Position numbers and translations under genes: made by a program | The notes under the pieces: generated by a model | The model's input: only the letters and a program-made list of their open reading frames with translations | What the model was told of the DNA's origin: nothing | Database searches by the model: none | In this document: positions 1 through 40,421 of the stretch, in pieces | Position numbering within the stretch: the first letter of the stretch is position 1 | How the letters are laid out: every line of letters begins with the position of its first letter | Virus record (IMG/VR): IMGVR_UViG_3300042731_011319 | Span: 32,001-96,000 of that record | DNA length: 64,000 nt | DNA from: a virus | Reading direction: 5' to 3' (one strand)

Positions 1-73
1 CTTTTTAAGGAGCCAGATGCAACTCCTACTTGCAGTATACCAATCCAATTTAAATCAAATCCAGTACGTGCCC
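1..73 (-). ncRNA. ssrA: tmRNA (SsrA), 5' part only, truncated by window edge
   Basis: Minus strand reads GGGCACGTACTGGATTTGAT...GCAAGTAGGAGTTGCATCTGGCTCCTTAAAAAG. This matches the tmRNA 5' layout: GGG start with G3, a GGATTyGAy element, and a PK1-like GGAG/CTCC stem followed by an A-rich loop. No ORF here; tag frame and 3' end are outside the window. Confidence 0.7.
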
Positions 74-109
74 ATAAAATATTAAAGAACAAAAAAATAA
101 TTACACTAA

Positions 110-1234
110 TTATTGACCTTGTGCAATCTCTTGATTGCCATCTTGAGTTGTAATAGGGTTCTGGGATCTAGCAGCTTCATAAAGAGCATTATAGTTTTTG
201 GTTACTTTTTGATATCTACGCCTAGTTATTGTTCTGAGTGATTCTTCGCTCATTCTGCTGGGCCCTTCTTCGCTAAATAATTTTAAGATAGCTATATCTT
301 TTTCTGTAACATCTACTTCCCATTTAATTTGATATCCGAAATCAGGAATCGGCGATGACAATTCCGGCGCAAAAGCCCTAGGCTGATCAGCACTTTTAGA
401 TTCGGTCCAAGTAAATACTGGAACAACACCATGCCAAGTTTCGTGAAAAGCACCGATATTAATCTTGGGTTCAACTACAGAATTATCGATACGAGAAGGA
501 TTAATTCGGTCAAATAAATTATTATAAGCCAACGGAAATCCAAAATCGTTTTCTTCATAAGAATAGACATGCAAATATTTGAATAAATTAAATGCAGACC
601 ATGAGCCATGGTCAGCATTTTTCAAAACCAATCTTCTTTGAGCTGAAGGATCGAGCTTTTTAAAATTTTCATAAAAACGATCCGCAAAATCACAATAAGA
701 ATCATGATCTTCTTTTGCTGGTTGAGAATTTAAATGAAGCAAGATAGGCGCAGAGATATTTTCCTGCAACCCAATTTCATCAAGAAACCAAGAGTAGAAA
801 TTAATTTCTTTGATTGATTTTTCAACGACTGCATCATCATCATCAATAAGTTTACAGAATTTATCAGGCTGAATAGATAAAGAAACTCCTTTTGTAATCG
901 AAGCCCTTCCAATTGATTGAATAGCTTCCGTAACCTGTCCATAGTTAGGTAGGTCTTGAATGGATAAATCAAACGAAGGATCAGAAAGAATACCAAATAC
1001 GGTAGCATTTAATCTATAATGATCAATTCCGCTATCTCTACAGAAATCAATAATTTTAATTGTAAGATTAAGATTTTTTAAGATCTCAGACTGCAATTGA
1101 TTTATTGCAGCCTCATCTCCTTGCTGAGAAGCTAATTCGGTATAAGCCTTGCGAGTTAAGCCGACGAACTGATTGGCGGGATCCTCTTGTTGGAGGATTT
1201 TAGAATTACAAACTAATCCGTATTTGGTATTCAT
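110..1234 (-). CDS. UV-damage endonuclease (UvsE/UVDE)-like protein, probably catalytically degenerate
   Basis: YGLVC, NL...YRL, SIQPDKF (usually SxHPxQF), LLHLN, LVLKNAD (usually LxLEND), W..xP and KDIA in UvsE order. Confidence 0.75.
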   Translation of the reverse strand: MNTKYGLVCNSKILQQEDPANQFVGLTRKAYTELASQQGDEAAINQLQSEILKNLNLTIKIIDFCRDSGIDHYRLNATVFGILSDPSFDLSIQDLPNYGQVTEAIQSIGRASITKGVSLSIQPDKFCKLIDDDDAVVEKSIKEINFYSWFLDEIGLQENISAPILLHLNSQPAKEDHDSYCDFADRFYENFKKLDPSAQRRLVLKNADHGSWSAFNLFKYLHVYSYEENDFGFPLAYNNLFDRINPSRIDNSVVEPKINIGAFHETWHGVVPVFTWTESKSADQPRAFAPELSSPIPDFGYQIKWEVDVTEKDIAILKLFSEEGPSRMSEESLRTITRRRYQKVTKNYNALYEAARSQNPITTQDGNQEIAQGQ

Positions 1235-1239
1235 TCAAT

Positions 1240-1515
1240 TTAAATAAGATCGATTTCTTCTACCTCTTCTGCAGGAGTATCAAGATCAGAGGAGTTCGTT
1301 ACTTGAACCGTGGAATCTCCCTGCTCTTTCTGGCGATAGATCCTGAAGTCAGGAGCTTTAGGATTTTCATCCTTGTACTTATTCTTAAATAGAATAACCT
1401 TCTCGCCATTCACTTGACCGGTAAGATACTTCTCGTTACCACCGTTCTTTACGTTAACCCAAAGGGCTCCAATTTCTCTATCACTCCACTCATTATTATC
1501 TTTATTTTCACTCAT
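1240..1515 (-). CDS. DUF736-like small protein, putative ssDNA-binding
   Basis: IGALW...KYLTG...N.YK....PDFRIY motif and acidic C-terminal tail. Confidence 0.55.
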   Translation of the reverse strand: MSENKDNNEWSDREIGALWVNVKNGGNEKYLTGQVNGEKVILFKNKYKDENPKAPDFRIYRQKEQGDSTVQVTNSSDLDTPAEEVEEIDLI

Positions 1516-1520
1516 AATTT

Positions 1521-1549
1521 ATTATATAGTATATTAATATTTAATTCAA
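1521..1549 (-). promoter_or_regulatory. sigma70-type promoter (leaderless) for 1240..1515
   Basis: TTGAAT-17 nt-TATAAT, 5 nt before ATG. Confidence 0.55.
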
Positions 1550-1626
1550 AATTTTCTAATTTCACCACTGTTTTTACATAGTATGTAAGCTACGAAAAGC
1601 ATTATTAATATTTTAATTGTTATCAT
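1546..1626 (-). CDS. possible 26-aa hydrophobic peptide (MITIKILIMLFVAYILCKNSGEIRKF)
   Basis: Manual translation; fills the gap between neighbouring genes; TM-like. Confidence 0.3.
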   Translation of the reverse strand: MITIKILIMLFVAYILCKNSGEIRKF

Positions 1627-1631
1627 GTTTT

Positions 1632-2168
1632 TTATCTGTATTGTTTTCTTAGTAGACGCCAGCGATCAGAATCGATAGGTTTGCTGCCATTATCTATAGC
1701 ATACAACATATCTATGATTTCGTCAAGCGAATTATAAATATATTTGTGGGGCATCATGCCAAGCATCCATAATGGGGTCTTTGCTTTGCCGCCTTCCATG
1801 CTGATAAAGATTGGTTTTTTCATGCGTACTGCGGTGACGATTTCTTCGCCGCTTCCCCAGCTTGCAACTTCTGGTACAAGATGGGCAACAATAAAATCAC
1901 TACGATCAACAAGGTTCAAGTCATATGAACGAACAGTCTTCATTTTCTCTGCGACACGATCATATTGCTTGGTCTTCATCCAAGTCTCCATCTCAACACG
2001 AGAAGCTTCGTCTTCTTCCACATCCTTAATAAAAGGTTTTTCATAGGGATTAAAACAGGTGATATTAAGGTCCGAAAGTTTTTCGGTTACTTCTTGTCGC
2101 CAGTCTCGACCGCTCAAGTACTGCATGTGGCCAACTAAATATGTTTTTGTTTTATATAAAAGATTCAT
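1632..2168 (-). CDS. nucleoside 2-deoxyribosyltransferase-like protein
   Basis: YLVGHM...WR...FNP...DL..VDRSD....S.G...E pattern. Confidence 0.75.
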   Translation of the reverse strand: MNLLYKTKTYLVGHMQYLSGRDWRQEVTEKLSDLNITCFNPYEKPFIKDVEEDEASRVEMETWMKTKQYDRVAEKMKTVRSYDLNLVDRSDFIVAHLVPEVASWGSGEEIVTAVRMKKPIFISMEGGKAKTPLWMLGMMPHKYIYNSLDEIIDMLYAIDNGSKPIDSDRWRLLRKQYR

Positions 2169-2178
2169 ACTGCCATAT

Positions 2179-2207
2179 AATATAGCAAATATGAATTAGT
2201 TTGTCAA
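2179..2207 (-). promoter_or_regulatory. sigma70-type promoter
   Basis: TTGACA-17 nt-TATATT with extended TG, 10 nt before ATG 2168. Confidence 0.7.
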
Positions 2208-2217
2208 CACTAATATT

Positions 2218-2349
2218 TCAACCTCGATTATAGATGTTAAACATGTTGCCAGCCTCATTTTGAGAAGTTACAAATTCACCAAGCACAAGCTTGCCTAACT
2301 TAGGTAAGTCGGATATTTTAGCTGGTCGGATTTTTGCTTTAAGGTGCAC
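2218..2349 (-). pseudogene. 43-aa ORF resembling a GNAT acetyltransferase N-terminus (truncated)
   Basis: Manual translation VHLKAKIRPAKISDLPKLGKL...; IRxAxxxDLxxL is typical of GNAT beta1-alpha1; stops before motif A. Confidence 0.35.
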
Positions 2350-2354
2350 CAGTA

Positions 2355-2726
2355 TTACGCATCGTAAACGCGATGTAGTGAATTTACCTCAAGAACAATA
2401 ATCTTACCCAAGTTTTCTCCATTTGGACGAACAGGATCAAAAGGCTTTAACTCCTCTTCTGTTAAGCCTGAATCAAGTAGCGCTTGCTTTTCTTCTTCAG
2501 ATAACCTGGAAGTGGGTAGAGTCCATCCAACTGCACTCTTTATTGCAGAAATAACTGAATCAACCTCTGAGTCTTCACAATATTTTTCGACCCTTGTTGA
2601 GGTTTGCTGATTACCTGTTGAGTCAATTCCGTAACATGAACTAAAACTAAGTGCGGATACTTGATCACTAATTTTGTGTATTATATTAGGATCATGTAAA
2701 GGTAAGTATGCGATTACTAATTTCAT
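2355..2726 (-). CDS. divergent PII (GlnB/GlnK)-fold protein
   Basis: MKLVIAYL / SALSFSSCYG / RVEKYCEDSEVDSVISAIKSA / GENLGKIIVLEVNSLHRV align with GlnB MKKIDAII / TGMTVTEVKG / KIEIVVPDDIVDTCVDTIIRTA / GKIGDGKIFVFDVARVIRI. Start moved to ATG 2726. Confidence 0.7.
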   Translation of the reverse strand: MKLVIAYLPLHDPNIIHKISDQVSALSFSSCYGIDSTGNQQTSTRVEKYCEDSEVDSVISAIKSAVGWTLPTSRLSEEEKQALLDSGLTEEELKPFDPVRPNGENLGKIIVLEVNSLHRVYDA

Positions 2727-2728
2727 AA

Positions 2729-4435
2729 TTATGTCCACTCAGATTTCCATGGTATTATTGCAGAACCGCCAGTAGCCCAGCCGCTATTATGGTCACCACT
2801 AGTTAAATATATTGGAGTACATGTATCACTCTCACTACTTCGGGTATTAAATTGAACCTGATAATTTTTTGTCTGATTTCCACCGGGGTAATATGAGTTA
2901 TCTGGGATCACAAAGGATTTAACATAATCTAGACCACTCCTTGATTGTTGGACGCCACTTTTTAATATGTTCACAAATGCCTCATAATACTTATATGCCC
3001 CGCTTCCAGATGGACTGGTAAGTTGCCAAACTTGCATATGGTCATCGCCTCCTGTAACATAAATATATACTCTTCCTGTTGATGGATTAATACCGCAAAT
3101 CAACATGTGATGCTTATACTTTTGCGAATCTGTCAAAGTTGCAGGCCCTGGGCTGGTTAAATAATCAGATGTAATAGGGAAATATTTTTTATTACCAACG
3201 TAACTATACGCACTAGGACCGTATGGTGTGTTGAGGGCACCTTTCGTCATATTCCAAATTTCCGCATTATCTACTTGGGTGTTACCGTTGCTTTCGTATC
3301 CGAAGCCCATGATCATATCGCCATTTGATCTTCGGCATGCTATATTCCATCCATTCCCAAATGCATTACCTCCACCTGTAAAAACACCATCCACTCCCTT
3401 GTCTGCAATAGTTGCTGCACCGGTTGATAAATTTACATCAATATGAGAAAAGAAATTAGCTGAATATTTAATATATATTCTTGCAGTACCACCTACATAT
3501 GCACCATCAGTCCACATGTGTGGCCATGGCGTGTCCCAAGCTGTTGTATGTTTAAAAGGCCAGGATGTGCTATTACTATAACCTGCAGAATCACGCGGGA
3601 GTATATGACTAACTAATGTGCCGTCCAGTTTGTACTGAGCCAAATGCTGGCCAGTGGTGGAAGCACCATAATTCGAAACAAATACCCAAGTGTCATTTTC
3701 ACCAGTTATAACAACTGGTGGGCACATAACATTTCCCTTTGACCACCCTGCTCCTCCACCCGAAGAAAAAGTTCGATAGGATCGCCAGGCAGGGTTGCCT
3801 GAGTCATCAGTCATCCATACTGCATCAGCATTGCTACCCCCTGCAGATACAACTCCGGCGGCAGTTTTAGTATTTGTCGGTAAGGGTAGCCAGCTACCGT
3901 CAGCATTTAACCATTCTTTTGATGCCACTTCTGTAGCTGATGGTCCGGGCACTAATCCCGCATATTCACTGCCAAAAGTTCGATGGGATCGCCAGCCGGG
4001 ATTGCCTGAAGCATCAGTCATCCATACTGCATGGGTATTAGCAGCCCCTGCAGAAACTAATCCTTCTACAGTCTTTGAATTTGTACGAACACTGCCCCAA
4101 CCAGGGTTGCCATCCGCATCAGTAGTCCATACTGCATGGGCATTGCTGCCCCCTGCAGATACAACTCCGGCGTCAGTCTTGGTATTCGCAAAAAAACTAA
4201 TCGGCCTCCAGTTTCCATCAGCAACAAGTATTTCTTTAGCGACCATTTCAGTTTCAGTTGGGCCGGGCACTAAGCCTTTGACATCTTTGGAAAATACTTG
4301 TTGTAGTTGCATCAGCTCGTGAACTGATATTTTATAAGTGATCGCACTATCAAAATCAGAAATCGCTAAAAGATCCTGATCGTTTAGAGAGTTTGCGGCA
4401 GGGGAAGTTAAATTGCGAATAGTATTAAATGACAT
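2729..4435 (-). CDS. tail fibre / receptor-binding protein A
   Basis: Repeated GLVPGP...L.ADG.W and AGVVSAGG..A.AVW.TD..GNP.W modules; G/S/T-rich beta C-terminus; in a virion gene cluster. Confidence 0.7.
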   Translation of the reverse strand: MSFNTIRNLTSPAANSLNDQDLLAISDFDSAITYKISVHELMQLQQVFSKDVKGLVPGPTETEMVAKEILVADGNWRPISFFANTKTDAGVVSAGGSNAHAVWTTDADGNPGWGSVRTNSKTVEGLVSAGAANTHAVWMTDASGNPGWRSHRTFGSEYAGLVPGPSATEVASKEWLNADGSWLPLPTNTKTAAGVVSAGGSNADAVWMTDDSGNPAWRSYRTFSSGGGAGWSKGNVMCPPVVITGENDTWVFVSNYGASTTGQHLAQYKLDGTLVSHILPRDSAGYSNSTSWPFKHTTAWDTPWPHMWTDGAYVGGTARIYIKYSANFFSHIDVNLSTGAATIADKGVDGVFTGGGNAFGNGWNIACRRSNGDMIMGFGYESNGNTQVDNAEIWNMTKGALNTPYGPSAYSYVGNKKYFPITSDYLTSPGPATLTDSQKYKHHMLICGINPSTGRVYIYVTGGDDHMQVWQLTSPSGSGAYKYYEAFVNILKSGVQQSRSGLDYVKSFVIPDNSYYPGGNQTKNYQVQFNTRSSESDTCTPIYLTSGDHNSGWATGGSAIIPWKSEWT

Positions 4436-4444
4436 AACAAGAAA

Positions 4445-5236
4445 TTAAAATTCATATATTAAAACAGAAAGAAATCCAGAATCAAGCCCTTGGCCGTTTT
4501 GATCTGCAATAAATACATCGATATATTGTGTCGATTTCTTCACTTCAACATGAGACAAGCTAGAACTAGAAAATGAATTAAATAAATCGCTAGTTGAGCA
4601 TACTACCTGATAATCAGATACACTTGAATAAGTAAAACCACTAAACCACAAACGATACATGCCAACGCCCAGCCTTCCTATTGTTAACCCTTTGCTTTTA
4701 ATACTAGGAGTAGTGCCCAATGTAACTTGACCCCCACGAGTTGGAACCAGTTGATTATGTAATGAGCTATTAACAGTTAAAGTTCCATCAACTTCCATAG
4801 ATGAACCAGAAATTGTAACAAAATTATCTTGAGCTAAATCGCCAACAATTAACTCGTCAGATAGGTGTCCGGATATGCCGTCTAAATCTTGATAATATCC
4901 ACTAGTACCGCTGACCCTTCCAAGGTCATATTGATAAATAAAATTTTCAGATCCGACTAAAACTGAACCGCTAATAAATTGAATATATTGGTCTCCAGCT
5001 AAATTAGTTGCCGAGCCACCGCGTGGCTCACCAAGTTCAGCAATTTTGACCCAGTCAGTATTATTATTTTCTCCAGTCTTTTCATACAAGAAATTGCTCG
5101 AAAGATCTAAAAATTTAGACCCACGTATTCCAGCTGCTTTTGAACTCTTGGCATCTCCTGTAGGGGGAGCAAAGTCAGAAATAAAAGGCTGACGTATGCC
5201 TAAATTTGAATTTACAAAATCTTCGAAAGCTCCCAT
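4445..5236 (-). CDS. putative virion/tail structural protein
   Basis: Context; G/S-rich; C-terminal R.G.G.Y...F beta-sandwich pattern seen in fibre proteins. Confidence 0.5.
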   Translation of the reverse strand: MGAFEDFVNSNLGIRQPFISDFAPPTGDAKSSKAAGIRGSKFLDLSSNFLYEKTGENNNTDWVKIAELGEPRGGSATNLAGDQYIQFISGSVLVGSENFIYQYDLGRVSGTSGYYQDLDGISGHLSDELIVGDLAQDNFVTISGSSMEVDGTLTVNSSLHNQLVPTRGGQVTLGTTPSIKSKGLTIGRLGVGMYRLWFSGFTYSSVSDYQVVCSTSDLFNSFSSSSLSHVEVKKSTQYIDVFIADQNGQGLDSGFLSVLIYEF

Positions 5237-5238
5237 AA

Positions 5239-8028
5239 TTAATCCTCTTTAACTATATATTTCGCTGGATTGTTTACATCAGCATTAGCTGCGCGGGAAA
5301 GTGAGTCGAGATTAAATACATGATCTCCATTATTATTAACTACACCGTTAGAATCGCAAACACAAAATCTATTGTCGTGATTGAATGAAAAGTCTAACTG
5401 AGTGCCTGGACTCAACTCTAAAAAACTATAAATTGTACCTCCACTTGGTCCTGACCCGCCCTCGCTAACATTTTCAAAATTAACATTATTAGGATTCGAA
5501 ACTGTTGTGCCAATGTACGCTAAACCTCCTGCCAAACCGTTGGGAGATGCAGAAATTTCACGTTCACTAAAACCAGCAAGAGTATAGTTTGGGTTTGTAC
5601 CTATAGTAGTGGTCGTAATATTCGCTAAATTAGAGGCTGAAACAACCCAAGAAAATTCACCTTTTTGATCGACATCTTTAACTGTTATAGTAAAATTATT
5701 AGAATTCAATCCTGTGCCGCTATTAGTTTGTGTCAGTAAAGAAGCGGGAGACTGCTGGGGATCGGTAGATAATGTAGGTGGCGAATTATAAACCTGATCA
5801 CTAACTAAATTAAAAGAATCGCTCAATCCTGAGTTAGAGCTAGCCAAGGTAGATGCAAGATTTTTGACTTCAAGGATAAGTGCTGAGTTGGCAATTTGTA
5901 CAATAGTAGATGCAGTAGCTTTTAGGCCATTACTATTTTTAGTGGCAATAATTTGAAAATTATTATTAGTTACATTATATCCTCCACTATTGTAGGTACA
6001 TGTTTTAGATGATTCAAATGTAGAGTTATTATCGATGGTGATTTGTTTTGTGCCTGATGTTGGGTCAGTATATGAGATAGAATCAAAATTAGATGCTACA
6101 TTGTTGACTGTAGCAACCTCTCCAGATTTAATTGCCCCCTGCCCTGCAGGATATGACACTGAACTAATAGTGAGACTTGGGCCTACATTATTAGTGCTTG
6201 CCGTATCGGAAGTTGCAGTATCACTGGTAGTACCATATTGATTTTGAGCCTGTAACTTAACAGAAAGATTGCCATTTCGCAGCCCAGTGACCTTCACTGG
6301 AATCGTATATCGATAAACATCTCCACTAACCAAGACTGAGTTATAATTAACAAAAGATGTTTGAGAGCCGTCAGATAATCCTTCTGAGAATACCTTAAGT
6401 TTAATCGATGTATTCAATTCGCCCTTTGTATCAATATCCGCTGTGACATTGACTGTGTCTCCACCTTTTAATTCAGTAGTCCCTATATTATGGCTAGATG
6501 CAGAACTAATGGCTGGTGTAATAATGGATGCATTACTTATAACAGGGCCATTGGCTATTTTAATTTTTACAAAATCTTGGTCTGTGGCTCCGTTGGCATC
6601 TCTAATAGCTTCAATTTTTAAGTTGTCTTCATTTGCAAAAATACCATCCGAATATGATACAGTTTTAGTAGCTTCAAAAGTAGAAGGATTACTAACAGTA
6701 AAAGAACTACTATTCACAGTCTGCGCAGAATAGGATATAGTATCGGTAGCCGTATTAAAATTAGATATAGAGTTAGAAAATGTTGTCGACTCGTCTTCTC
6801 GCAAGCCATCAGTACGACCATTATAGCTAGCAGGATCATTCGCAGAAATATTAGGATAGGTTTGGTCCAATAGAACAGATTCACTAAAATTGGAATCGGA
6901 AGATTGCTCAGCTCCAATAGAACCTAAATTATTTTTTGAGCGTATTTTAATTCCCTGATTGCCTGAACGATTAGAAACAGTAATAGAAATTGTAGCTCTT
7001 TTAGTGTTAGCATCAAGGTCTACGAAATTATAGTTGGTGAAATCAATACCGCTAGAAATACCATAATCCAAGACTTCAATTTGCTCAGGAGTTGTTAGGG
7101 GGTTGGCGAATAAACTGGCAGGGTAATCAATGAATACATTGATCTTGTCGCCAGACTTTAATGCGCTTGATCCAAGCATTTCTCCAGTTTTTGGGGTAGC
7201 ATTACTGATGGCATCAATAGTAATATTATTAGCTGTAGGCCCGGATCCAATAACTACTAAGCTGATTGTAGACTCAATGCCATTAACGGAGCCAGTAAGT
7301 TCAGATAACCCTTCTGCATTAAGATTATCGAGATAACCTTCAAAGCGTCTAGTTCCAGAGCTTATTTCAGTAATGTTTTCTTGAGGTATAACTGTTCCAT
7401 TAATCGATGCAGTACCCATATATTCATTAAGTGGGCCATCCCACCTGAGTGTGACTTTTAAATTATTAGCTGACTCAACGGAAACACCAGATAGGTATGT
7501 TTCGGGAGTAGGAGTATTATAATAAGTTGCAATACTTGCGCCTTCATTATTCAGAACATCATGAAAAAACACAAAAGAAGTATCTGGGCCTTCTGGTGTG
7601 GGTATTGTATCTATTTCGTTTTGAAGGTAGCCGCTTAAGCTCGAAATCGGCCCGTCAATATCTGGTGTGGGTATTGTATCTATTTCGTTTTGAAGGTAGC
7701 CGCTTAAGCTCGAAATCGGCCCGTCAATATCTGGTGTGGGTATTGTATCTATTTCGTTTTGAAGGTAGCCGCTTAAGCTAGAAATAGGACCACTAATGTC
7801 TGGAGCAGGAAGGTTATTGATAGATGTATCTACATAATCACGAAGGGCCTGAAACTCCCCTGATACATTTGGTGCGATACCCTCAGACTCTATTCTGCTT
7901 TTAAGAGTGCTAGATAAATCAGCAAATGTAACCCTATAATTAGTCTCAACAGTAGCAACTAAAAAGTTAAAGTCATCCTGGGGAGCGACCTTATCGAGCT
8001 CTGTAATCTTTTTACCTGGAGCAGCCAT
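5239..8028 (-). CDS. large S/T/N-rich virion protein with Ig-like repeats
   Basis: N-terminal KITEL motif, 23-aa tandem repeats, duplicated ~250-aa beta-rich unit (LKSGDKINV / LKGGDTVNV). Confidence 0.6.
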   Translation of the reverse strand: MAAPGKKITELDKVAPQDDFNFLVATVETNYRVTFADLSSTLKSRIESEGIAPNVSGEFQALRDYVDTSINNLPAPDISGPISSLSGYLQNEIDTIPTPDIDGPISSLSGYLQNEIDTIPTPDIDGPISSLSGYLQNEIDTIPTPEGPDTSFVFFHDVLNNEGASIATYYNTPTPETYLSGVSVESANNLKVTLRWDGPLNEYMGTASINGTVIPQENITEISSGTRRFEGYLDNLNAEGLSELTGSVNGIESTISLVVIGSGPTANNITIDAISNATPKTGEMLGSSALKSGDKINVFIDYPASLFANPLTTPEQIEVLDYGISSGIDFTNYNFVDLDANTKRATISITVSNRSGNQGIKIRSKNNLGSIGAEQSSDSNFSESVLLDQTYPNISANDPASYNGRTDGLREDESTTFSNSISNFNTATDTISYSAQTVNSSSFTVSNPSTFEATKTVSYSDGIFANEDNLKIEAIRDANGATDQDFVKIKIANGPVISNASIITPAISSASSHNIGTTELKGGDTVNVTADIDTKGELNTSIKLKVFSEGLSDGSQTSFVNYNSVLVSGDVYRYTIPVKVTGLRNGNLSVKLQAQNQYGTTSDTATSDTASTNNVGPSLTISSVSYPAGQGAIKSGEVATVNNVASNFDSISYTDPTSGTKQITIDNNSTFESSKTCTYNSGGYNVTNNNFQIIATKNSNGLKATASTIVQIANSALILEVKNLASTLASSNSGLSDSFNLVSDQVYNSPPTLSTDPQQSPASLLTQTNSGTGLNSNNFTITVKDVDQKGEFSWVVSASNLANITTTTIGTNPNYTLAGFSEREISASPNGLAGGLAYIGTTVSNPNNVNFENVSEGGSGPSGGTIYSFLELSPGTQLDFSFNHDNRFCVCDSNGVVNNNGDHVFNLDSLSRAANADVNNPAKYIVKED
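7592..7803. repeat. 69-bp in-frame tandem repeat, ~3 copies (PDIDGPISSLSGYLQNEIDTIPT)
   Basis: Units start at 7592, 7661 and 7730; first two identical, third diverges after ~7779. Confidence 0.95.
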
Positions 8029-8034
8029 TGATTA

Positions 8035-10254
8035 TTAAGATTCTAAGCTGTCAATGCGCGATTTTAACTCTTGATTTTGATGTTGTAATTCTTTAATTGA
8101 CTCAATTAATACCGGAATTAATTTATGGTAGGCTACTGTCTTATAGCCGTTTGAATCAGATTCAACTGCCATAGGCAAAACAGCTTCCACATCTTGAGCG
8201 GTTATGCCAATATCATAAAATCCAGGCTGTCGACTATTTTCAGACCAATTAAAATAGACTCCGTCAATTGAGTTTAACAAGTCAAGAGGGTTAGACACTT
8301 TTTTAAAATTGTTTTTAAGACGAGCATCGGAAGAATAAAATTGAGCTTCTAGTAAACTACTCCATCCATCAAACTTCAAAAATCCGCCCTCCATATATAA
8401 ACCTCCGTATCCAGGTCCAGGATCAACTCCACCAGATAATGTAAGATTGACTGCATTATTAGCCAAGAAAGTGCCGCCTGTGCCAGGGGTCGGAATCGCA
8501 TTAACCCAAAGAGAACCTACAGGTCCATTTAAGGCTGCTGAAAAATCTGTTCGAGTAACTTCTGTGATAGAATTGGCTCGCATTGTCACAGTTAAAGTAG
8601 TAATCCCAGTGCCAGAATCCGTAACCTCAGTCACTTTAAAAGGTATAGCCGTTGAATTTTCTGACAAAGCCGGATCTACAGCAGAGTTAATTCTAATTTT
8701 ATTTGCATCAGCTCCAGGGTTACGACCTTGAATTGTTATACCTTCAAAAACAACATTGGCATACACTGGTTGAAGGCCAATTTTGACAGCGCCAGGAACG
8801 GTATCAGTTGCTAGAATTAGTTCTGACCAGCTACCATCTCCTTTAATATAGTAATCTTCTTCTCCTGATTTAGGCTGTGGCACAAGGCCTTCAATTCCAT
8901 TGTTAGTAGAAGTAGATCCAGTAAAGGGTGCGGATATAGCGATATCTTCCCAATATAAGTCACTTTTGCTTTCTCCTGTAGTAATATGAGAATATAATAA
9001 ATTATTCGTGTTGTCAGGTTTCTCGTAAACATCTTGCCCTGCAAATCGCGATGTCCTAATAATGTCAGGTAGTCGAACACCTTCTCCGAATACACCTACC
9101 TTATCAACATAGAAATTAGTATTCATGCGCCAAGTATCACATTCTTTGAGCCATTGAATATATCTATGAACTCCACCTGCACCTGCGCCCCCATCAAGTA
9201 ATTCCATTTGGTACTCTGATATTAATGAGGATGCACTGTTATTTGCGGCAGCTTTAATAAGATGACCCGCTTCACTGCAATTAATTAATTCAGCAAGATC
9301 TGCTTGAGTTCTTTCAGTAATCTCCCCTGCTGCTGAGCATGCAAGAAACAGCTCGATCATAATCAATGGATTAGCAGTCTTATCAATGATAGCATAATCA
9401 TCAATCCCAGGATCTCCTTCGATGCCGAGAATTGTTATTGAAATAAGATTGCCATTTTCTCCAGCTTCTTGAGCGGTGATAGTTACTCCATCAAGAACAA
9501 TGGATGCATGAGTCGTGTTGTCATGGGTTTTTAATGTGATTCCGCCAAAATTAGCGCTATCTTGATTGGTGCCTCCTGCAGATGATTTATTGCCCAATTC
9601 AATATTACTGTCTTCTACAACCAGTTTTTCTGTCTCAAGAATAGCATCGTCACCTAAAATAGTTAAATTACCACTGATGGTTGTATCTCCGGCCACATAA
9701 AGATCATCACGCATATGGCTATCTCCGCTAACAACAAAAGTTTGTCCAATATAAGCATGATCAGATACATGCAAGTCGCTTTGAAGAAAAGAATCCCCAG
9801 TGACAGAAAGATTATCTGTAATAAAAACATCAGAATTTAAAAAAGTATCACCAATGACTGTTGAATCTCCTTCTACTTTTAGTGATTGCTCTAGAAGACT
9901 ATGACCGGTGACAATTAAATTTTCTCCAACAAATGCATCTCCAGTTAAATAAAAATTATGATCACCATTAACATCACCAGCTACATAAATAGAACGACGT
10001 AAAGTTACATCACGCACGTCTTCATCATCTACAGCTCCAAGATGAATCTTCTGTGTATCAGTAAAAAAAATAGGTGATCCGCCTCCAAGGGCAAGATTAA
10101 CATCATTGACTAAGCCAGTAAAAGGAATACGATAATTTGTTGCATCTCTATTTTCTGCCGCTAAACCGCTTGCGACTACATAGTAAATGTCAGCATTTTG
10201 ATAGACTTGATCGTGTGGAAATTCTGGTAATTGTGATATTTTTCTATCTGCCAT
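8035..10254 (-). CDS. tail fibre with C-terminal intramolecular chaperone (peptidase S74)
   Basis: KISQL N-terminus, V.GD repeats, GLVPQP...GDG.W, C-terminal SDARLK.N...F.W...G.AQDVE...Y..L...L.E.IKEL. Confidence 0.85.
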   Translation of the reverse strand: MADRKISQLPEFPHDQVYQNADIYYVVASGLAAENRDATNYRIPFTGLVNDVNLALGGGSPIFFTDTQKIHLGAVDDEDVRDVTLRRSIYVAGDVNGDHNFYLTGDAFVGENLIVTGHSLLEQSLKVEGDSTVIGDTFLNSDVFITDNLSVTGDSFLQSDLHVSDHAYIGQTFVVSGDSHMRDDLYVAGDTTISGNLTILGDDAILETEKLVVEDSNIELGNKSSAGGTNQDSANFGGITLKTHDNTTHASIVLDGVTITAQEAGENGNLISITILGIEGDPGIDDYAIIDKTANPLIMIELFLACSAAGEITERTQADLAELINCSEAGHLIKAAANNSASSLISEYQMELLDGGAGAGGVHRYIQWLKECDTWRMNTNFYVDKVGVFGEGVRLPDIIRTSRFAGQDVYEKPDNTNNLLYSHITTGESKSDLYWEDIAISAPFTGSTSTNNGIEGLVPQPKSGEEDYYIKGDGSWSELILATDTVPGAVKIGLQPVYANVVFEGITIQGRNPGADANKIRINSAVDPALSENSTAIPFKVTEVTDSGTGITTLTVTMRANSITEVTRTDFSAALNGPVGSLWVNAIPTPGTGGTFLANNAVNLTLSGGVDPGPGYGGLYMEGGFLKFDGWSSLLEAQFYSSDARLKNNFKKVSNPLDLLNSIDGVYFNWSENSRQPGFYDIGITAQDVEAVLPMAVESDSNGYKTVAYHKLIPVLIESIKELQHQNQELKSRIDSLES

Positions 10255-10299
10255 AATATATTATATACACATACAACAGATTAAATATATAATTTTATA

Positions 10300-12702: not shown

Positions 12703-12730
12703 ATGTAAGTATGAATATATTGATATACAC

Positions 12731-17806: not shown

Positions 17807-18397
17807 TTAAAAAGTAATAAATGAAACTAAAATATATCTAGTGCCTGATGTAACTGGTCTAGATCCGTGTTGATATTTACGATTGCCGGGATGCATTAAA
17901 AGATCTCCTTTATTGGGTTGAATTAATTTTCCATGAAATTTTTGATCTCCTACAAAAAAAGTGCCTCCTCCTTCAAAGTTGTCAGACAATAAAATATTAA
18001 TAGTATACATAACATGATCACCGTCAGTATGCAGCTTGAGGTGGCCTTGTGTTTCAGGTGTATATTTAGCAATAAAACTATGATCCGAAAAAGTTTCTTT
18101 GCAAACAACTCCAGGGACGAAAGATAGGCAGTATAAAGCCATGGGGTGAATATACTTTCTTAAAAATTCTGTGTATTCTTCGTACAAGTCTAAAGATACA
18201 TCCTTAAGTAAAATATCAGTAGTTGGTGCAGTTTGATGGCGATCTGTTAAAAATCTAGATTCATCTAAGCATTGAATAAGATGATCGCATGTATTTCCAG
18301 AAAAACAAGGTATTTGAAAAATTCCAGGATGAACTTCATCAACCATTAATTCCCATTCTTGGCTCAACAAATGAGGCGATATATTTAGAGAATTCAT
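17807..18397 (-). CDS. 2OG-Fe(II) dioxygenase, lysyl/prolyl hydroxylase-like
   Basis: KY.PETQ..L.LHTD...T.N..L...FEGGGT.F...HPG...H...PVT.GTRYILVSF, closely following the PLOD-type catalytic domain pattern. Confidence 0.88.
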   Translation of the reverse strand: MNSLNISPHLLSQEWELMVDEVHPGIFQIPCFSGNTCDHLIQCLDESRFLTDRHQTAPTTDILLKDVSLDLYEEYTEFLRKYIHPMALYCLSFVPGVVCKETFSDHSFIAKYTPETQGHLKLHTDGDHVMYTINILLSDNFEGGGTFFVGDQKFHGKLIQPNKGDLLMHPGNRKYQHGSRPVTSGTRYILVSFITF

Positions 18398-18402
18398 TAA
18401 AT

Positions 18403-20094
18403 TTAAAATGAATCGAGGATGTCTAGGCTGCCATCAGGTGGTGTTAGCCGATAGCCGCCATGAATCCAAAGCTCGATGCCATGATCGGGCATACTGGTGC
18501 CTATCGGATACCTCAAAGGAATATCATGAGTAATATCTAAATGATTTGTACTGCCATCGTCTTTATAAAGACTATCAAACCAATCCCTCGGATGAGTTCC
18601 TATATCAACGCCCTCAAAAAAATATACCGACCACTCATAAAAAGCGCATGGATTATCTAATTTTCCGCCATATCCATTCGATCTAACCCATGTTCTATTT
18701 AGTTTTCTAATATGTCCGTGAGGTAAAATGATAGCCATCGAATAGTATCCATTACCCAAGAGGGTGCCGGTATCACCAGCATTAAATGTGGTGGTGTAAT
18801 TCGGCCATTTTGAGGTATAGCTAACCAAAGGCCAAGTTTGATGCAGAAGATGAGCATACATGGGTCCATGGCTACTACCACAACCGCCTTCGAGAAAAAC
18901 CAATCGCTGTTGATTGCCATATGGGTTGCCAGTCTTCCATTCGACATTGAGTTTTATTTCTTCGCACCCACCTCCAGATTTAAGAGCTTGAAACCATATA
19001 TAAGAACCCTCCTTGCCAACCGTGTCCGCGTAGTTCTGTCCTTCAATTAAAAAATCAGTATAATCACTGCCTGCACCATTGCTATTACCATGAGCTATCA
19101 ATTGCCAACTAGGATAACCTGTGAGAGCCGGCGGGTTTGGTTTTGCGGAATAAACAATTTTAATATACTTGCCTTGCCAGCTTACGCGACCATAACCATC
19201 TACCCAAAATCCATAAGTAAAAGCATCGTATCGACCATTGGTATTCTGGCCATCTTCTAACATAATATTAAAGCCAGCTTTACTCAATTGAACATCAAAC
19301 TGTATATTACTGGTTTGTATAACCGCAACGCCTGAAACCTCTAGGCCTGTATCATAATCCAATACTTCAACTCGATGTGCATTTCTACCATCAGCGAAAG
19401 CGGAAACCCAAACCTCTACAAGCATGGATGTGGTGTTATGGCCATGATATACTGTCCATGCACTTCCTGGACTAACTGGGCCTACCCACCCAGTAGATTC
19501 AACAGAGCTGGTGGGCATTTCAATGGCGCCCCAACTGCCGTCACCTTTAAGATATGCATTTTCGCTTCCAGCTGAAGGGGCTGGCACAAGACCAGATGTT
19601 CCAGCCGTACTTGAGCTTGCGCCACTAAAAGCAGGTGTGACGGGCAAAGGCCTCCATGTGCCGTCAGCATTTAACCATTCTTTTGCGGCCACCTCTGTAG
19701 CTGTTGGTCCGGGCACTAATCCAGTATGGCCACTACCAAAAGTTCGATGAGATCGCCAAGCAGGGTTGCCTGAGGCATCAGTCATCCATACTGCATGGGC
19801 ATTGCTGCCCCCTGCAGATACAACTCCGGCAGCGGTTTTACTATTTGCAAAATAACTAATCGGCCTCCAATTTCCATCAGCAACAAGTATTTCAGTAGAG
19901 ACAATTTCAGCTTCAGTTGGGCCGGGCACTAAACCTTTAACATCTTTGGAAAATACTTGTTGTAGTTGCATCAGCTCGTGAACTGATATTTTATAAGTGA
20001 TCGCACTATCAAAATCAGCAATAGCTAAAAGATCTTCATCTTTCAAAAAATTTGCGGGAGGAACAGATAGATCTCGAATAGTATTAAATGACAT
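18403..20094 (-). CDS. tail fibre / receptor-binding protein B (paralogue of 2729..4435)
   Basis: First ~150 aa nearly identical to fibre A modules; unrelated C-terminus. Confidence 0.7.
   Translation of the reverse strand: MSFNTIRDLSVPPANFLKDEDLLAIADFDSAITYKISVHELMQLQQVFSKDVKGLVPGPTEAEIVSTEILVADGNWRPISYFANSKTAAGVVSAGGSNAHAVWMTDASGNPAWRSHRTFGSGHTGLVPGPTATEVAAKEWLNADGTWRPLPVTPAFSGASSSTAGTSGLVPAPSAGSENAYLKGDGSWGAIEMPTSSVESTGWVGPVSPGSAWTVYHGHNTTSMLVEVWVSAFADGRNAHRVEVLDYDTGLEVSGVAVIQTSNIQFDVQLSKAGFNIMLEDGQNTNGRYDAFTYGFWVDGYGRVSWQGKYIKIVYSAKPNPPALTGYPSWQLIAHGNSNGAGSDYTDFLIEGQNYADTVGKEGSYIWFQALKSGGGCEEIKLNVEWKTGNPYGNQQRLVFLEGGCGSSHGPMYAHLLHQTWPLVSYTSKWPNYTTTFNAGDTGTLLGNGYYSMAIILPHGHIRKLNRTWVRSNGYGGKLDNPCAFYEWSVYFFEGVDIGTHPRDWFDSLYKDDGSTNHLDITHDIPLRYPIGTSMPDHGIELWIHGGYRLTPPDGSLDILDSF
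19940..20018. repeat. 79-bp exact direct repeat of 4281..4359
   Basis: Base-by-base identity within a longer ~400-bp similar region. Confidence 0.9.
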
Positions 20095-39484: not shown

Positions 39485-40421
39485 TTTGAGAGGTCTTGAT
39501 TACTTCTAGCCACTTTTTGTTTACAGCATCTATAGAGAAATTTAGTATACTAAAATTAAAAGCATTTTCTATAATTTTTGCAACTGCTTTAGGATTGCTG
39601 TTTGCCCAATTAATTTTATCAACAAGATCAGATAGATCTTTTTTGATTGGTATATAATGCTCCATGGGAACCAAATCTTTTTCATAGTATGCTTTATGAA
39701 AGCGCTCCTGTAAAAAAGTCAAACGATGAGACTGAAGAAAGTATTTAACCCTTGGGCTCCAGCCAGAAGCCTGTAGGTCAATAAAATAACTGTAACCAAG
39801 AACAGCATCTTCTAGAGAAATAAAGTTTTGGTCATTTTTATTAGGCTTTGCAAATTTTGCATCAATTAAATCCGGGTTCTGCTCGCTAAGATCAACCAAA
39901 GGGCCACGAAGTTTTGGGTATTTTGTGCCACGCCAAAACATTTTTGAGGAAGCTGGCTTTGACTCTCCAGCAGTACGGATTTTAATAAAGTAACGATCAT
40001 ATTTCATTCCACACCAATCCCAAAAAGTGAAATCGGGGCAACAAATAAAATCTGGATGATTCCTTAAGTTAAGGGGGCATTCCGGTTCGTTTTTATCAAT
40101 GTAAGACTGAAATAAAATGGGTTCAGTTGATTGATTTATGATATCAGCTTTGGGTGGGACATCTATAAAATAAATTTTAACTGGATTGAAGTCTGGAAAG
40201 TTTAGAGCCGTATCAGCCCTTTCAATCTGCTTGATAAAGCTAACTGCTTTTGAGTTTTTTGCATCAAATTTCCATGGAGAGTGATCATAGTAATGGTTTA
40301 ATAATGAACCATTCTTTTTTTCAACTACAACCCTGCCAAACCGAAAGCGATCCTCTTCGCAAGTAAGGTCAAAATCAAAAGGTTTTCCTATAATTCTGTA
40401 TGGTGTAAAATCAGAGCTCAC
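39477..40421 (-). CDS. GT90/CAP10-like glycosyltransferase
   Basis: PD..F..W, FWRG, Y.ID....WS.R.KY.L, L.P..HYIP...DL.DL...I.W. Confidence 0.85.
   Translation of the reverse strand: MSSDFTPYRIIGKPFDFDLTCEEDRFRFGRVVVEKKNGSLLNHYYDHSPWKFDAKNSKAVSFIKQIERADTALNFPDFNPVKIYFIDVPPKADIINQSTEPILFQSYIDKNEPECPLNLRNHPDFICCPDFTFWDWCGMKYDRYFIKIRTAGESKPASSKMFWRGTKYPKLRGPLVDLSEQNPDLIDAKFAKPNKNDQNFISLEDAVLGYSYFIDLQASGWSPRVKYFLQSHRLTFLQERFHKAYYEKDLVPMEHYIPIKKDLSDLVDKINWANSNPKAVAKIIENAFNFSILNFSIDAVNKKWLEVIKTSQNA

What the first reader, a model, noticed from the sequence alone, without database searches (positions are those of the whole stretch)
2355..4435. PII-fold protein coupled to a tail fibre: possible co-opted trimeric chaperone or tip
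Seen: the gene starting 2 nt after the fibre A stop aligns end to end with GlnB/GlnK. The T-loop is shortened to ~10 residues (no GRQKG, no uridylylated Tyr, no clear K58), ~30 residues are inserted in the B-loop, and equivalents of G35, K90 and R101 remain. Known: PII proteins are homotrimers that sense ATP/ADP and 2-oxoglutarate; fibres are trimers, and the gene directly downstream is usually the assembly chaperone. Inference: the PII scaffold has been repurposed as a three-fold-symmetric fibre chaperone or cap (possibly nucleotide-responsive), or acts as a decoy subunit for host nitrogen signalling.
Basis: partly seen in the sequence, partly recalled or inferred. Interest (0 to 1): 0.8.

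Follow-up and report, generated by a model that had tools for sequence, protein, structure and literature searches.

The report
Loop-less PII protein paired with fibre tip
A marine phage carries a very rare, stripped-down relative of the bacterial PII nitrogen-sensor protein. It always travels as a two-gene unit with the sugar-binding propeller tip of a tail-fibre protein, so it most likely serves that tip rather than nitrogen signalling; no binding or function was tested.

Summary
The 123-aa gene at window 2355-2726 (minus strand) starts 2 nt after the stop of a 568-aa fibre-like gene. It is a true but very divergent PII homologue: profile-profile probability 96% over the whole length, and every top Foldseek PDB hit is GlnB/GlnK/GlnZ. 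About 13 T-loop residues are missing, about 30 are inserted before the B-loop, and the 2-oxoglutarate/Mg and most phosphate ligands are lost. It fails Pfam P-II and both PII signature patterns.

New here: the family is tiny, with 2 clusters among 1.84 billion representatives. In all three loci I could read, the gene sits 1-2 nt after a gene ending in the same ~340-aa five-bladed, glycosidase-like beta-propeller. Three more contigs hold both proteins, judged by matching contig lengths. One otherwise unrelated viral contig shares exactly propeller plus PII-like gene (1382 nt, 86% identical). The phage has a second fibre with the same N-terminus and a different tip.

Best reading (about 0.45, inferred): a trimeric partner of the propeller tip, either assembly factor or cap. 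Rivals are a regulatory inhibitor of the propeller, an independent small-ligand binder or enzyme, and a nitrogen-signalling decoy (unlikely). Another first-reader note in this scan describes the same gene on the same DNA.

The parts
2355..2726 (-). PII-like gene (123 aa plus stop). Divergent, T-loop-less member of the PII/GlnB-like superfamily. Core b1 2-8, a1 13-22, b2 27-34, residual T-loop about 35-41, b3 40-50, a2 52-66, lineage-specific insert about 69-100, B-loop motif RPNGE(N/D)LGKIIVL 100-112.
   Evidence: dN/dS 0.23 against L002
2724..2731 (-). Gene junction: TAA stop of the fibre gene, a 2-nt spacer, then the ATG of the PII-like gene. This is the most conserved DNA stretch between the window and L001 (56 nt, 80% identical). 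Spacing is 2 nt in L002 and 1 nt in L001, so translational coupling is likely.
2729..4435 (-). 'Fibre A', 568 aa. An N-terminal anchor and GLVPxP...DGxW repeats (residues 1 to about 225) are followed by the C-terminal propeller.
2732..3763 (-). C-terminal domain of fibre A (residues 225-568). Predicted five-bladed beta-propeller resembling GH130/GH32/GH43 enzymes and PLL-type lectins. It has an invariant C-terminal IPW.S.W tail.
   Evidence: pTM 0.70, pLDDT 59; Z 10-11.6
2353..3731 (-). Horizontally shared cassette of propeller domain plus PII-like gene. It is 85.9% identical over 1382 nt to L002:477-1855. Similarity starts at the beginning of the propeller domain and ends at the PII-like stop. 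Nothing else is shared between the two contigs.
3761..4435 (-). N-terminal module of fibre A, shared with the paralogue 'fibre B'. The first 60 residues or so are nearly identical.
18403..20094 (-). Fibre B (563 aa). It has the same N-terminal anchor and repeats as fibre A but an unrelated C-terminal domain. A 2OG-Fe(II) oxygenase gene (17807-18397) follows it 5 nt later.
4445..10254 (-). Upstream genes of the same tightly packed unit: a 739-aa fibre with a Peptidase_S74 intramolecular chaperone domain (8035-10254), a 929-aa repeat protein (5239-8028) and a 263-aa protein (4445-5236). Gaps between genes are 6, 2 and 9 nt.
10266..10270 (-). GTGTA motif 11 nt before the ATG of the 739-aa fibre gene. 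The same motif precedes fibre B and the ClpB-like gene. It is a candidate start of the five-gene fibre unit that ends with the PII-like gene.
   Evidence: motif lead from earlier notes
2179..2207 (-). Sigma-70-like promoter (TTGACA, 17 nt, TATATT, with TG; 11 of 12) in front of the next gene (1632-2168). It marks the PII-like gene as the last gene of the fibre unit.
2289..2309 (.). 9-bp inverted repeat in the 186-nt spacer after the PII-like gene. It may be a terminator, but the T-run is on the + strand, so this is uncertain.

Best explanation
The gene encodes a highly derived PII-superfamily protein that has lost the T-loop and the 2-oxoglutarate/Mg-ATP sensing residues. It has been recruited as the dedicated partner of a glycan-recognising five-bladed beta-propeller at the distal end of a phage fibre.

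Proposed mechanism (inferred):
- It is translated right after fibre A, through a coupled stop-start junction, as the last gene of a five-gene fibre unit.
- It forms the usual PII-type homotrimer.
- Its strongly conserved inter-subunit clefts (the CED.EV motif and the B-loop RPNGE..GKI.VL) engage the propeller domain or its invariant C-terminal IPW.S.W tail.
- It thereby helps three fibre chains to fold or assemble, or stays on as a three-fold cap or clamp.

Shown: PII homology and fold; loss of the sensor features; obligate adjacency wherever context could be read; co-transfer with the propeller domain as one cassette; purifying selection.

Inferred: trimer formation, physical contact, and an assembly or cap role.
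For: PII homology.

Adjacency at 1-2 nt in every locus with readable context:
- window;
- L001 (propeller 38% and PII-like 48% identical to the window's);
- L002 (75% and 88%).

Placement on the same contig, judged by equal contig length, for P0010+P0004 (21,789 bp), P0013+P0002 (4,956 bp) and P0034+P0012 (58,662 bp).

Cassette boundaries coincide with the propeller domain start and the PII-like stop, and no other ORF is shared. This is the pattern known for fibre C-termini and their cognate assembly proteins (general phage knowledge).

Fibre context:
- an S74-chaperone fibre lies upstream;
- the GLVPxP..DGxW motif is shared with that fibre;
- the paralogue fibre B has the same N-terminus and a different tip;
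- the gene is last in the unit, with a strong promoter for the next gene;
- a GTGTA motif sits at the head of the unit.

Purifying selection: dN/dS is 0.23 for the PII-like gene against 0.49 for the propeller.

Loss of sensing: the 2-OG/Mg and most phosphate ligands listed in PMC8395244 (Q39, G41, K58, R9, G87, R103) have no equivalent in the alignment.
Against:
- Beta-propellers fold as single-chain units and normally need no trimeric chaperone.
- The propeller family has at least 14 clusters at 90% identity. The PII-like family has only 6-7 clusters and just 2 clusters at 50% identity among 1.84 billion representatives. Many propeller genes may therefore lack this partner.
- The invariant residues are polar or charged and sit where PII binds ligands. 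That pattern suits a small-molecule site at least as well as a chaperone surface.
- There is no similarity to any known fibre-assembly family.
- 'Fibre' status of the 568-aa protein rests on context and motifs, not on a structural hit.
Confidence: 0.45

Rival explanations
1. Regulatory or inhibitory subunit. Like PII proteins that bind and switch enzymes (for example the T-loop-independent GlnZ-DraG complex), the trimer binds the glycosidase-like propeller inside the infected cell and keeps it inactive or masked until virion assembly or release. This could matter here because the phage itself builds large amounts of glycan.
For: - The propeller resembles GH130/GH32/GH43 enzymes.
- The best PDB sequence hit is the T-loop-deleted GlnZ crystallised with DraG.
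- Cassette co-inheritance.
- The conserved polar cleft fits a ligand-modulated switch.
Against: - No catalytic residues were identified in the propeller. Fold matches are moderate (TM 0.36-0.43, rmsd 4-5 A) and also fit lectins.
- No interaction was tested.
- The hit to 5ovo reflects the missing T-loop, not the DraG contact.
Confidence: 0.15
2. Autonomous small-ligand binder or enzyme of the PII-like superfamily that merely rides with the fibre tip. Examples would be an adenine-nucleotide or second-messenger receptor or sponge (PstA/DarA- or SbtB-like) or a lyase like the phage SAM lyases. It would act in the cytoplasm on host metabolism or defence.
For: - Phage-encoded PII-like trimers with enzymatic roles exist: SAM lyase (PMC7877911) and SAM-AMP lyase (PMC12255297).
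- The architecture of short T-loop plus long B-loop region recalls PstA (PMC4475381). The VIA hit 3m05 scores Z 8.6 at 27% identity, SbtB Z 7.4 and SAM-AMP lyase Z 6.7.
- The invariant residues (S27, G33, R45, E47, C50, E51, D52, E54, R100-E104, G107, K108) map to the inter-subunit ligand cleft.
- The propeller family is larger than the PII-like family.
Against: - Strict adjacency, coupled junction and cassette co-transfer with the propeller, and a position at the end of a structural operon, are unusual for early anti-defence genes.
- No Pfam hit to CdAMP_rec or any other PII-like family at E <= 10.
- hhalign to T3 SAM lyase gives Prob 0.2%.
- The phosphate-binding arginines are not conserved.
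Confidence: 0.25
3. Decoy or mimic of host PII that perturbs nitrogen signalling, either by forming heterotrimers with host GlnB/GlnK or by occupying PII targets. This would be comparable to the canonical P-II auxiliary genes of ocean viruses.
For: - True PII ancestry.
- Canonical P-II genes are known in marine viral contigs, some next to amt (bioRxiv 10.1101/053090, read).
Against: - The T-loop, which mediates most known PII-target contacts (knowledge of the PII family), is reduced to a few residues, and the modification site is absent.
- The 2-OG/Mg site is lost.
- Identity to PII is only 18-31%, so heterotrimers are unlikely.
- There is no amt or nitrogen gene nearby; the gene sits in a fibre operon.
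- The viral P-II genes in that paper were found through Pfam and keep the motifs; this one fails Pfam.
Confidence: 0.05
4. A decaying remnant of a captured PII gene with no present function.
For: Loss of the canonical motifs; extreme rarity.
Against: - The frame is intact in all 7 members at 43-88% identity, with blocks of invariant residues.
- dN/dS is 0.23.
- The start and the junction are conserved.
Confidence: 0.03

Closest known systems
Canonical PII signal proteins GlnB/GlnK/GlnZ (Pfam PF00543)
   Same: Same ferredoxin-like b-a-b-b-a-b fold and order of elements. End-to-end profile homology (Prob 96%). MKL.IA.I start of b1. Equivalents of T29, G35, K60/E62, the D67 region, G89 and K90 are kept. 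31% identity between the family member P0006 and a real PII.
   Different: About 13 T-loop residues are deleted and there is no Tyr51/Ser49 site. No Q39, G41, K58 or R/K9 (2-OG/Mg), and G87, D88, R103 are not kept. A 30-32-aa insert lies before the B-loop in most members. It is below the Pfam threshold and fails both signature patterns. It is encoded in a phage fibre operon instead of next to amtB, glnA or nif genes.
Engineered T-loop deletion GlnZ(delta 42-54) in complex with DraG (PDB 5ovo)
   Same: Best sequence and Foldseek hit. It shows that a PII trimer without a T-loop is stable and can still bind a partner enzyme through its body (entry title).
   Different: That protein is an artificial deletion of a normal sensor that still binds ADP/ATP. 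Here the deletion is natural and is combined with loss of ligand residues and a new insert.
PstA/DarA c-di-AMP receptors (PII-like; PMC4475381)
   Same: A PII-like protein with a shortened T-loop region and an enlarged B-loop region (the loop lengths of PstA are from my own knowledge). The structural match to 3m05, which I believe belongs to this family, is Z 8.6 at 27% identity.
   Different: No Pfam match to that family at E <= 10. The insert-free member P0006 shows that the long loop is not a family-wide feature. Canonical PII scores higher by sequence.
Phage SAM lyases (T3 gp0.3, Svi3-3; PMC7877911) and SAM-AMP lyases (PMC12255297)
   Same: Small phage-encoded or defence-associated proteins with a GlnB-like trimeric fold and active sites at subunit interfaces. 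They are a precedent for PII-like folds with non-signalling roles in phages.
   Different: No sequence relation (hhalign to T3 SAM lyase gives Prob 0.2%). The structural match is weaker (9gab Z 6.7 against PII 9.3). T3 SAM lyase is an early gene at the left end of its genome; this gene ends a fibre operon.
Canonical viral P-II auxiliary metabolic genes of ocean viruses (Roux et al., bioRxiv 10.1101/053090)
   Same: PII-derived genes carried by marine phages.
   Different: Those keep the PII motifs, were detected through Pfam, and some sit next to amt. This gene fails Pfam, lacks the motifs and is tied to a fibre tip.
Tail-fibre assembly proteins and adhesins encoded directly downstream of fibre genes (lambda/Mu Tfa, T4 gp38, gp57A)
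   Same: Small gene immediately after the fibre gene, co-inherited with the fibre's C-terminal domain and swapped as a cassette between phages (general phage knowledge; here).
   Different: No sequence or fold relation. The partner domain is a propeller, not an intertwined trimeric tip. Function untested.
Fungal het-B pair: PII-like Bp with the lectin-fold protein Bh (PMC10890737)
   Same: A PII-like protein genetically paired with, and proposed to be recognised by, a glycan-binding-type domain encoded next to it.
   Different: Eukaryotic allorecognition system. Bp keeps a T-loop. [quoted passage not shown] There is no homology claim; it is an analogy only.

Membership tests
Canonical PII (GlnB/GlnK, Pfam PF00543) | Scores above the Pfam P-II gathering threshold | tested here: not met
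   P0001 has no hit even at E <= 10. Only 3 of 7 family members hit, best E 5.1e-4. Genome search with PF00543 finds nothing in G000 at E <= 1.
Canonical PII (GlnB/GlnK, Pfam PF00543) | PII-type b-a-b-b-a-b fold with end-to-end homology | tested here: met
   hhalign Prob 95.9%, E 2.5e-9, query 1-123 against GlnB 1-105. All top-listed Foldseek hits are PII, E 3e-5. VIA Z 9.3 and 9.0. ESM Atlas model TM 0.56-0.63 to PF00543 clusters.
Canonical PII (GlnB/GlnK, Pfam PF00543) | Long T-loop (about residues 37-55) carrying the Tyr51/Ser49 modification site | tested here: not met
   13 residues are deleted between the G35 and K60 equivalents. The pattern Y[KR]G[AS][AE]Y is absent in 7 of 7 members and present in E. 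coli GlnB and two bacterial controls (pattern recalled from PROSITE).
Canonical PII (GlnB/GlnK, Pfam PF00543) | B-loop signature [ST]x3G[DY]G[KR][IV][FW][LIVM] | tested here: not met
   Absent in 7 of 7 members and present in 7 of 12 PII controls. The motif here is RPNGE(N/D)(L/Q)GKI(I/F/L)VL; only the G89 and K90 equivalents are kept.
Canonical PII (GlnB/GlnK, Pfam PF00543) | Mg-ATP/2-oxoglutarate ligand set (T29, Q39, G41, K58, G87, K90, R101, R103, R/K9; list from PMC8395244) | tested here: not met
   By the alignment: T29 to S27 and K90 to K108 are kept; R101 to R119 in 4 of 7; Q39 and G41 are deleted; K58 to S/G; G87 to N/D; R103 and R9 are not kept.
Canonical PII (GlnB/GlnK, Pfam PF00543) | Homotrimer | not testable with these tools
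   Only single-chain prediction was offered. The trimer is inferred from homology.
PII-like / GlnB-like superfamily (broad sense) | Ferredoxin-like PII-type fold, with superfamily members as nearest structural neighbours | tested here: met
   VIA-wide top rows: PII, LarC2, 3m05, DUF3240, HisG C-terminal domain, NIF3 insert, SbtB, CutA (Z 7-9.3).
PstA/DarA c-di-AMP receptor family (Pfam CdAMP_rec) | Sequence match to the family model | tested here: not met
   No Pfam family other than P-II and DUF2280 for any of the 7 members at E <= 10.
PstA/DarA c-di-AMP receptor family (Pfam CdAMP_rec) | c-di-AMP binding at the inter-subunit cleft | not testable with these tools
   Needs a binding assay. The structural neighbour 3m05 at Z 8.6 is only a lead.
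Phage SAM lyase family (T3 gp0.3 / Svi3-3) | Sequence or profile similarity to SAM lyases | tested here: not met
   hhalign of the family against T3 SAM lyase: Prob 0.2%, E 0.3.
Phage SAM lyase family (T3 gp0.3 / Svi3-3) | Structural match closer than to other PII-like proteins | tested here: inconclusive
   The related SAM-AMP lyase 9gab scores Z 6.7, below PII at 9.3. Svi3-3 is not among the 50 rows shown.
Tail-fibre assembly / chaperone proteins (functional class) | Encoded immediately downstream of a fibre gene and co-inherited with its C-terminal domain | tested here: met
   1-2-nt junction in 3 loci. The cassette is 86% identical over 1382 nt with exact boundaries.
Tail-fibre assembly / chaperone proteins (functional class) | Similarity to a known chaperone family (Tfa, gp38, gp57A and others) | tested here: not met
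   No Pfam or PHROG hit. No tblastn hit in 50,697 phage records.
Tail-fibre assembly / chaperone proteins (functional class) | Binds the fibre and is needed for its folding or trimerisation | not testable with these tools
   Needs co-expression experiments or multimer modelling.

The most novel reading that the evidence does not exclude
The PII signalling scaffold has been converted into a non-signalling, three-fold-symmetric structural or assembly partner (chaperone, clamp or cap) of a phage receptor-binding beta-propeller. It uses the former nucleotide clefts to grip the fibre's conserved C-terminal tail. This would be the first PII-superfamily protein with a role in virion assembly or host recognition.
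Probability: 0.35. Interest if true: 0.75.

Novelty: new variant of a known kind. Interest (0 to 1): 0.55.

Why it matters
PII proteins are among the most widespread signal transducers. Nearly all known roles depend on the T-loop and on ATP/ADP/2-OG sensing.

A natural T-loop-less descendant, locked genetically to a phage fibre tip, would show that the trimeric PII body can be reused for a quite different job: protein assembly, capping, or control of a glycan-binding domain. It would also add a new class of accessory gene to look for next to phage receptor-binding proteins.

Practically, the cassette (propeller plus PII-like gene) is a compact, exchangeable host-recognition module in a phage that also makes its own sulfated and fucosylated glycans.

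The limits are real. The family is extremely rare, the phage is uncultured, and nothing about function has been measured.

Tried and rejected
- Pfam and PHROGs on P0001: no hit.
- megablast and tblastn against 50,697 phage records: no match for the locus, for P0001 or for the fibre N-terminus.
The contigs of P0002, P0004, P0005, P0006 and of the other propeller homologues therefore could not be read. Synteny for those rests on equal contig lengths only.
- First metagenome scan with the family alignment: nothing. The second scan, with P0006, returned two canonical PII genes (L020, L021). They were useful as a bridge, not as family members.
- Viral-contig scans with P0006 and with the propeller alignment gave nothing new.
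- hhalign against single E. coli GlnB aligned only the B-loop and b4 (Prob 34%). A PII alignment was needed.
- Idea of a conserved inter-protein disulfide (C50 of the PII-like protein with the MC.P cysteine of the propeller): dropped, because that cysteine is not invariant in the wider propeller alignment.
- SAM-lyase membership: no profile similarity.
- Canonical PII elsewhere in the phage record or in the two related records: none found.
- BFVD fold search: only weak hits (E >= 5e-4, TM about 0.4-0.58) to uncharacterised phage proteins, which is uninformative.
- ESM Atlas feature search: no usable hit for P0001.
- tRNA scan of the window: none.
Full report
**1. The observation**

On the minus strand, a 568-aa ORF (2729-4435) ends with TAA at 2731-2729. 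Two bases later an ATG (2726) opens a 123-aa ORF that ends at 2355. An upstream GTG is possible, but every homologue starts MKL[VI]IAY, so the ATG is the start.

Pfam and PHROGs give no hit for this protein.

**2. It is a real, very divergent PII homologue**

Family size:
- The 5.8-billion-protein index holds only four relatives, at 54-88% identity.
- An exhaustive HMM search of 1.84 billion cluster representatives finds two clusters in all. One of them (P0006, 102 aa) lacks the insert.

Sequence evidence:
- A family profile searched against all PDB sequences puts PII proteins first: 5ovo_B, a T-loop-deleted GlnZ, at E 5.6e-4, and 13 of 18 listed hits are PII (weaker with five sequences).
- Pfam P-II is hit below threshold by 3 of 7 members.
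- I built a PII alignment from E. coli GlnB and nine archaeal PII genes. hhalign of the family against it gives Prob 95.9%, E 2.5e-9, covering residues 1-123 against GlnB 1-105.
- P0006 aligns to a canonical PII from a metagenome contig at 31% identity over its full length, E 1e-10.

Structure evidence:
- The AF2 model (mean pLDDT 66.5; core blocks 75-82; insert 41-56) has the order b-a-b-b-a-insert-b.
- Foldseek against the PDB returns only GlnB/GlnK/GlnZ in the listed top ranks, at E about 3e-5.
- An independent all-against-all aligner gives Z 9.3 and 9.0 for PII. Other PII-like superfamily members follow: LarC2, 3m05, DUF3240, HisG C-terminal domain, SbtB, CutA.
- The ESM Atlas's own model also matches PF00543 clusters.

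**3. What is kept and what is lost**

This uses the alignment and the ligand list in PMC8395244.

| PII residue | In this family |
|---|---|
| T29 | S27, invariant |
| G35 | G33, invariant |
| K60 / E62 | R45 / E47, invariant |
| G89, K90 | G107, K108, invariant |
| R101 | R119 in 4 of 7 |
| Q39, G41 | deleted, with 13 T-loop residues |
| K58 | S or G |
| G87, D88 | N/D, L/Q |
| R103, R/K9 | not kept |

Neither PII signature pattern is present in any member, whereas PII controls match.

A 30-32-residue acidic, partly helical insert lies between helix 2 and the B-loop in six members and is absent in P0006.

The most conserved blocks are b1, R.E..CED.EV at the b3/a2 junction, and RPNGE..GKI.VL. 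These are the walls of the inter-subunit cleft in PII.

Canonical Mg-ATP/2-OG sensing is not expected, but the cleft still seems to be used for something.

**4. The partner gene**

Fibre-type features of the 568-aa protein:
- Its N-terminal 225 residues hold GLVPxP...DGxW motifs. The same motif occurs in the 739-aa neighbour that carries a Peptidase_S74 intramolecular chaperone domain and hits many tail-fibre PHROGs.
- A paralogue at 18403-20094 ('fibre B') shares the first ~150 residues, and the first ~60 are nearly identical. Its C-terminal domain is unrelated. That is the usual design of two receptor-binding proteins that dock on the same site.

The C-terminal domain (residues 225-568):
- It is predicted as a beta-propeller (pTM 0.70, pLDDT 59).
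- It matches five-bladed GH130/GH32/GH43/GH62 enzymes at Z 10-11.6 over about 240-260 residues. Foldseek E is about 1e-4 with TM 0.36-0.43.
- The ESM Atlas model matches PLL-type lectin propellers and GH43.
- I read it as a glycan-binding or glycan-cleaving tip. Catalytic residues were not identified.

**5. The coupling is a cassette**

- In L001 (IMG/VR contig, 44 kb) a 398-aa protein consisting almost only of this propeller (38% identical) is followed after 1 nt by a PII-like gene (48% identical).
- In L002 (a 22.7-kb contig binned into an 'uncultured archaeon' MAG) the upstream protein has a different N-terminus but a 75% identical propeller. The PII-like gene (88% identical) follows after 2 nt.
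- At the DNA level, L002:477-1855 equals window 3731-2353 at 85.9% over 1382 nt. The block begins at the start of the propeller domain and ends at the PII-like stop codon. No other ORF of L002 has a relative anywhere in the 110-kb phage record.
- L001 shares just four ORFs with the phage. The only DNA-level match between L001 and window 1-8000 is the 56 nt across the stop-start junction.
- dN/dS between the window and L002 is 0.23 for the PII-like gene and 0.49 for the propeller.

**6. Operon context**

The genes 739 aa, 929 aa, 263 aa, fibre A and PII-like are separated by 6, 2, 9 and 2 nt.

A GTGTA motif, noted by earlier readers as a possible late promoter, sits 11 nt before the first gene. 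It also precedes fibre B and the ClpB-like gene.

After the PII-like gene comes a 186-nt spacer with an 11-of-12 sigma-70-like promoter for the next gene, a nucleoside deoxyribosyltransferase-like protein. The PII-like gene is thus the last gene of a fibre unit.

**7. A caveat that cuts against an obligate chaperone**

A profile search with the propeller finds 14 clusters, of 393-669 aa with varied N-termini. That is more than the 6-7 PII-like clusters.

Some of these are paired, as listed above. For the others I could not read the contigs, for three reasons:
- IMG/VR holds only L001.

Either those lineages lack the partner, or they use another one.

**8. Interpretation**

Best-supported reading: a derived PII trimer that works with the propeller tip.
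- Assembly factor or cap: 0.45.
- Regulatory inhibitor of a glycosidase-like tip: 0.15.

Other rivals:
- An autonomous ligand binder or enzyme, PstA-, SbtB- or SAM-lyase-like: 0.25. It is kept alive by the polar conserved cleft and by the precedent of phage PII-like enzymes (PMC7877911, PMC12255297). It is weakened by the cassette structure, by the lack of any Pfam match to those families and by Prob 0.2% against T3 SAM lyase.
- A nitrogen-signalling decoy: 0.05. This is unlikely because the T-loop and sensor residues are gone and the context is structural. The canonical viral P-II genes described in ocean viromes keep those motifs and sometimes sit next to amt (10.1101/053090).
- A dead remnant: 0.03. 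This is contradicted by conservation and dN/dS.

**9. Novelty**

PII-like folds in phages are known, and so are canonical viral P-II genes. I found no paper in the held library linking a GlnB-like protein to a tail fibre.

This is a new, very small, divergent family within a known superfamily, in a new genetic association. I rate it 'new variant of a known kind', with interest 0.55. The anatomy and the cassette evidence are solid and somewhat surprising, but function is wholly inferred and the family is rare.

Another first-reader note in this scan (e1-6047735) describes the same gene on the same DNA in nearly the same terms.

Noticed in passing
window 18403-20094 (-) and 17807-18397 (-): Fibre B shares the N-terminal ~150 aa of fibre A but has an unrelated C-terminal domain. 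A prolyl-hydroxylase-type 2OG-Fe(II) oxygenase gene (PF13640) follows it 5 nt later, in the same 'accessory' position that the PII-like gene holds after fibre A. It might hydroxylate the GLVPGP motifs before glycosylation (speculation).
   Followed up: partly
window 28307-51659 (-): A long run of back-to-back ~200-330-aa genes. It includes an NAD-dependent epimerase/dehydratase and glycosyltransferases of families GT2, GT11, GT47-like and GT61. Earlier notes of this scan describe it as a sulfated-fucose glycan island.
   Followed up: partly
window 10300-12702 (-) and 40411-42162 (-): The phage encodes a full-length ClpB-like double AAA+ ATPase (800 aa) directly after the fibre unit. It also encodes a 583-aa protein with an HSP90/GHKL-type ATPase domain. 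That is an unusual chaperone load for a phage.
   Followed up: no
window 10266-10270, about 12715, about 20105 (-): GTGTA followed by AT-rich sequence lies 11-23 nt before the ATGs of the 739-aa fibre gene, the ClpB-like gene and fibre B. It is not found before the internal genes of the fibre unit, which fits a promoter-like element marking unit starts.
   Followed up: partly
window 5239-8028 (-), about 7527-7781: The 929-aa protein has three tandem copies of a ~22-aa unit (DI(S/D)GPISSLSGYLQNEIDTIPTP). Its C-terminal half hits a PHROG labelled 'tail sheath' (E 4e-47), which looks like a doubtful label for a fibre-module protein.
   Followed up: no
L002 (CALIKS010000006.1, 'uncultured archaeon' MAG), 1846-11848: Downstream of the cassette lie five large ORFs (489, 476, 405, 229 and >1753 aa). 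They have no PHROG hit and no relative in the phage. The contig looks viral and may be mis-binned. The first ORF overlaps the PII-like stop by 8 nt.
   Followed up: partly
window 1632-2168 (-) and 110-1234 (-): A nucleoside 2-deoxyribosyltransferase-like gene with its own strong sigma-70-like promoter is followed by a 91-aa ORF and a UvdE-type UV endonuclease.
   Followed up: no
L024 (G000 96001-109722): 4858-7350 (-) and 7347-13721 (-): An 830-aa protein combines RCC1-like propeller repeats with a kinase-like C-terminus. It lies next to a >2041-aa ORF that runs off the record end.
   Followed up: no
L020:936-1271 and L021:10001-10336: Two canonical PII genes from metagenome contigs share the exact N-terminal octapeptide MKLVIAYI with the phage family, as does an archaeal PII in L011. 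This is a possible hint at the donor lineage but is too short to use.
   Followed up: no
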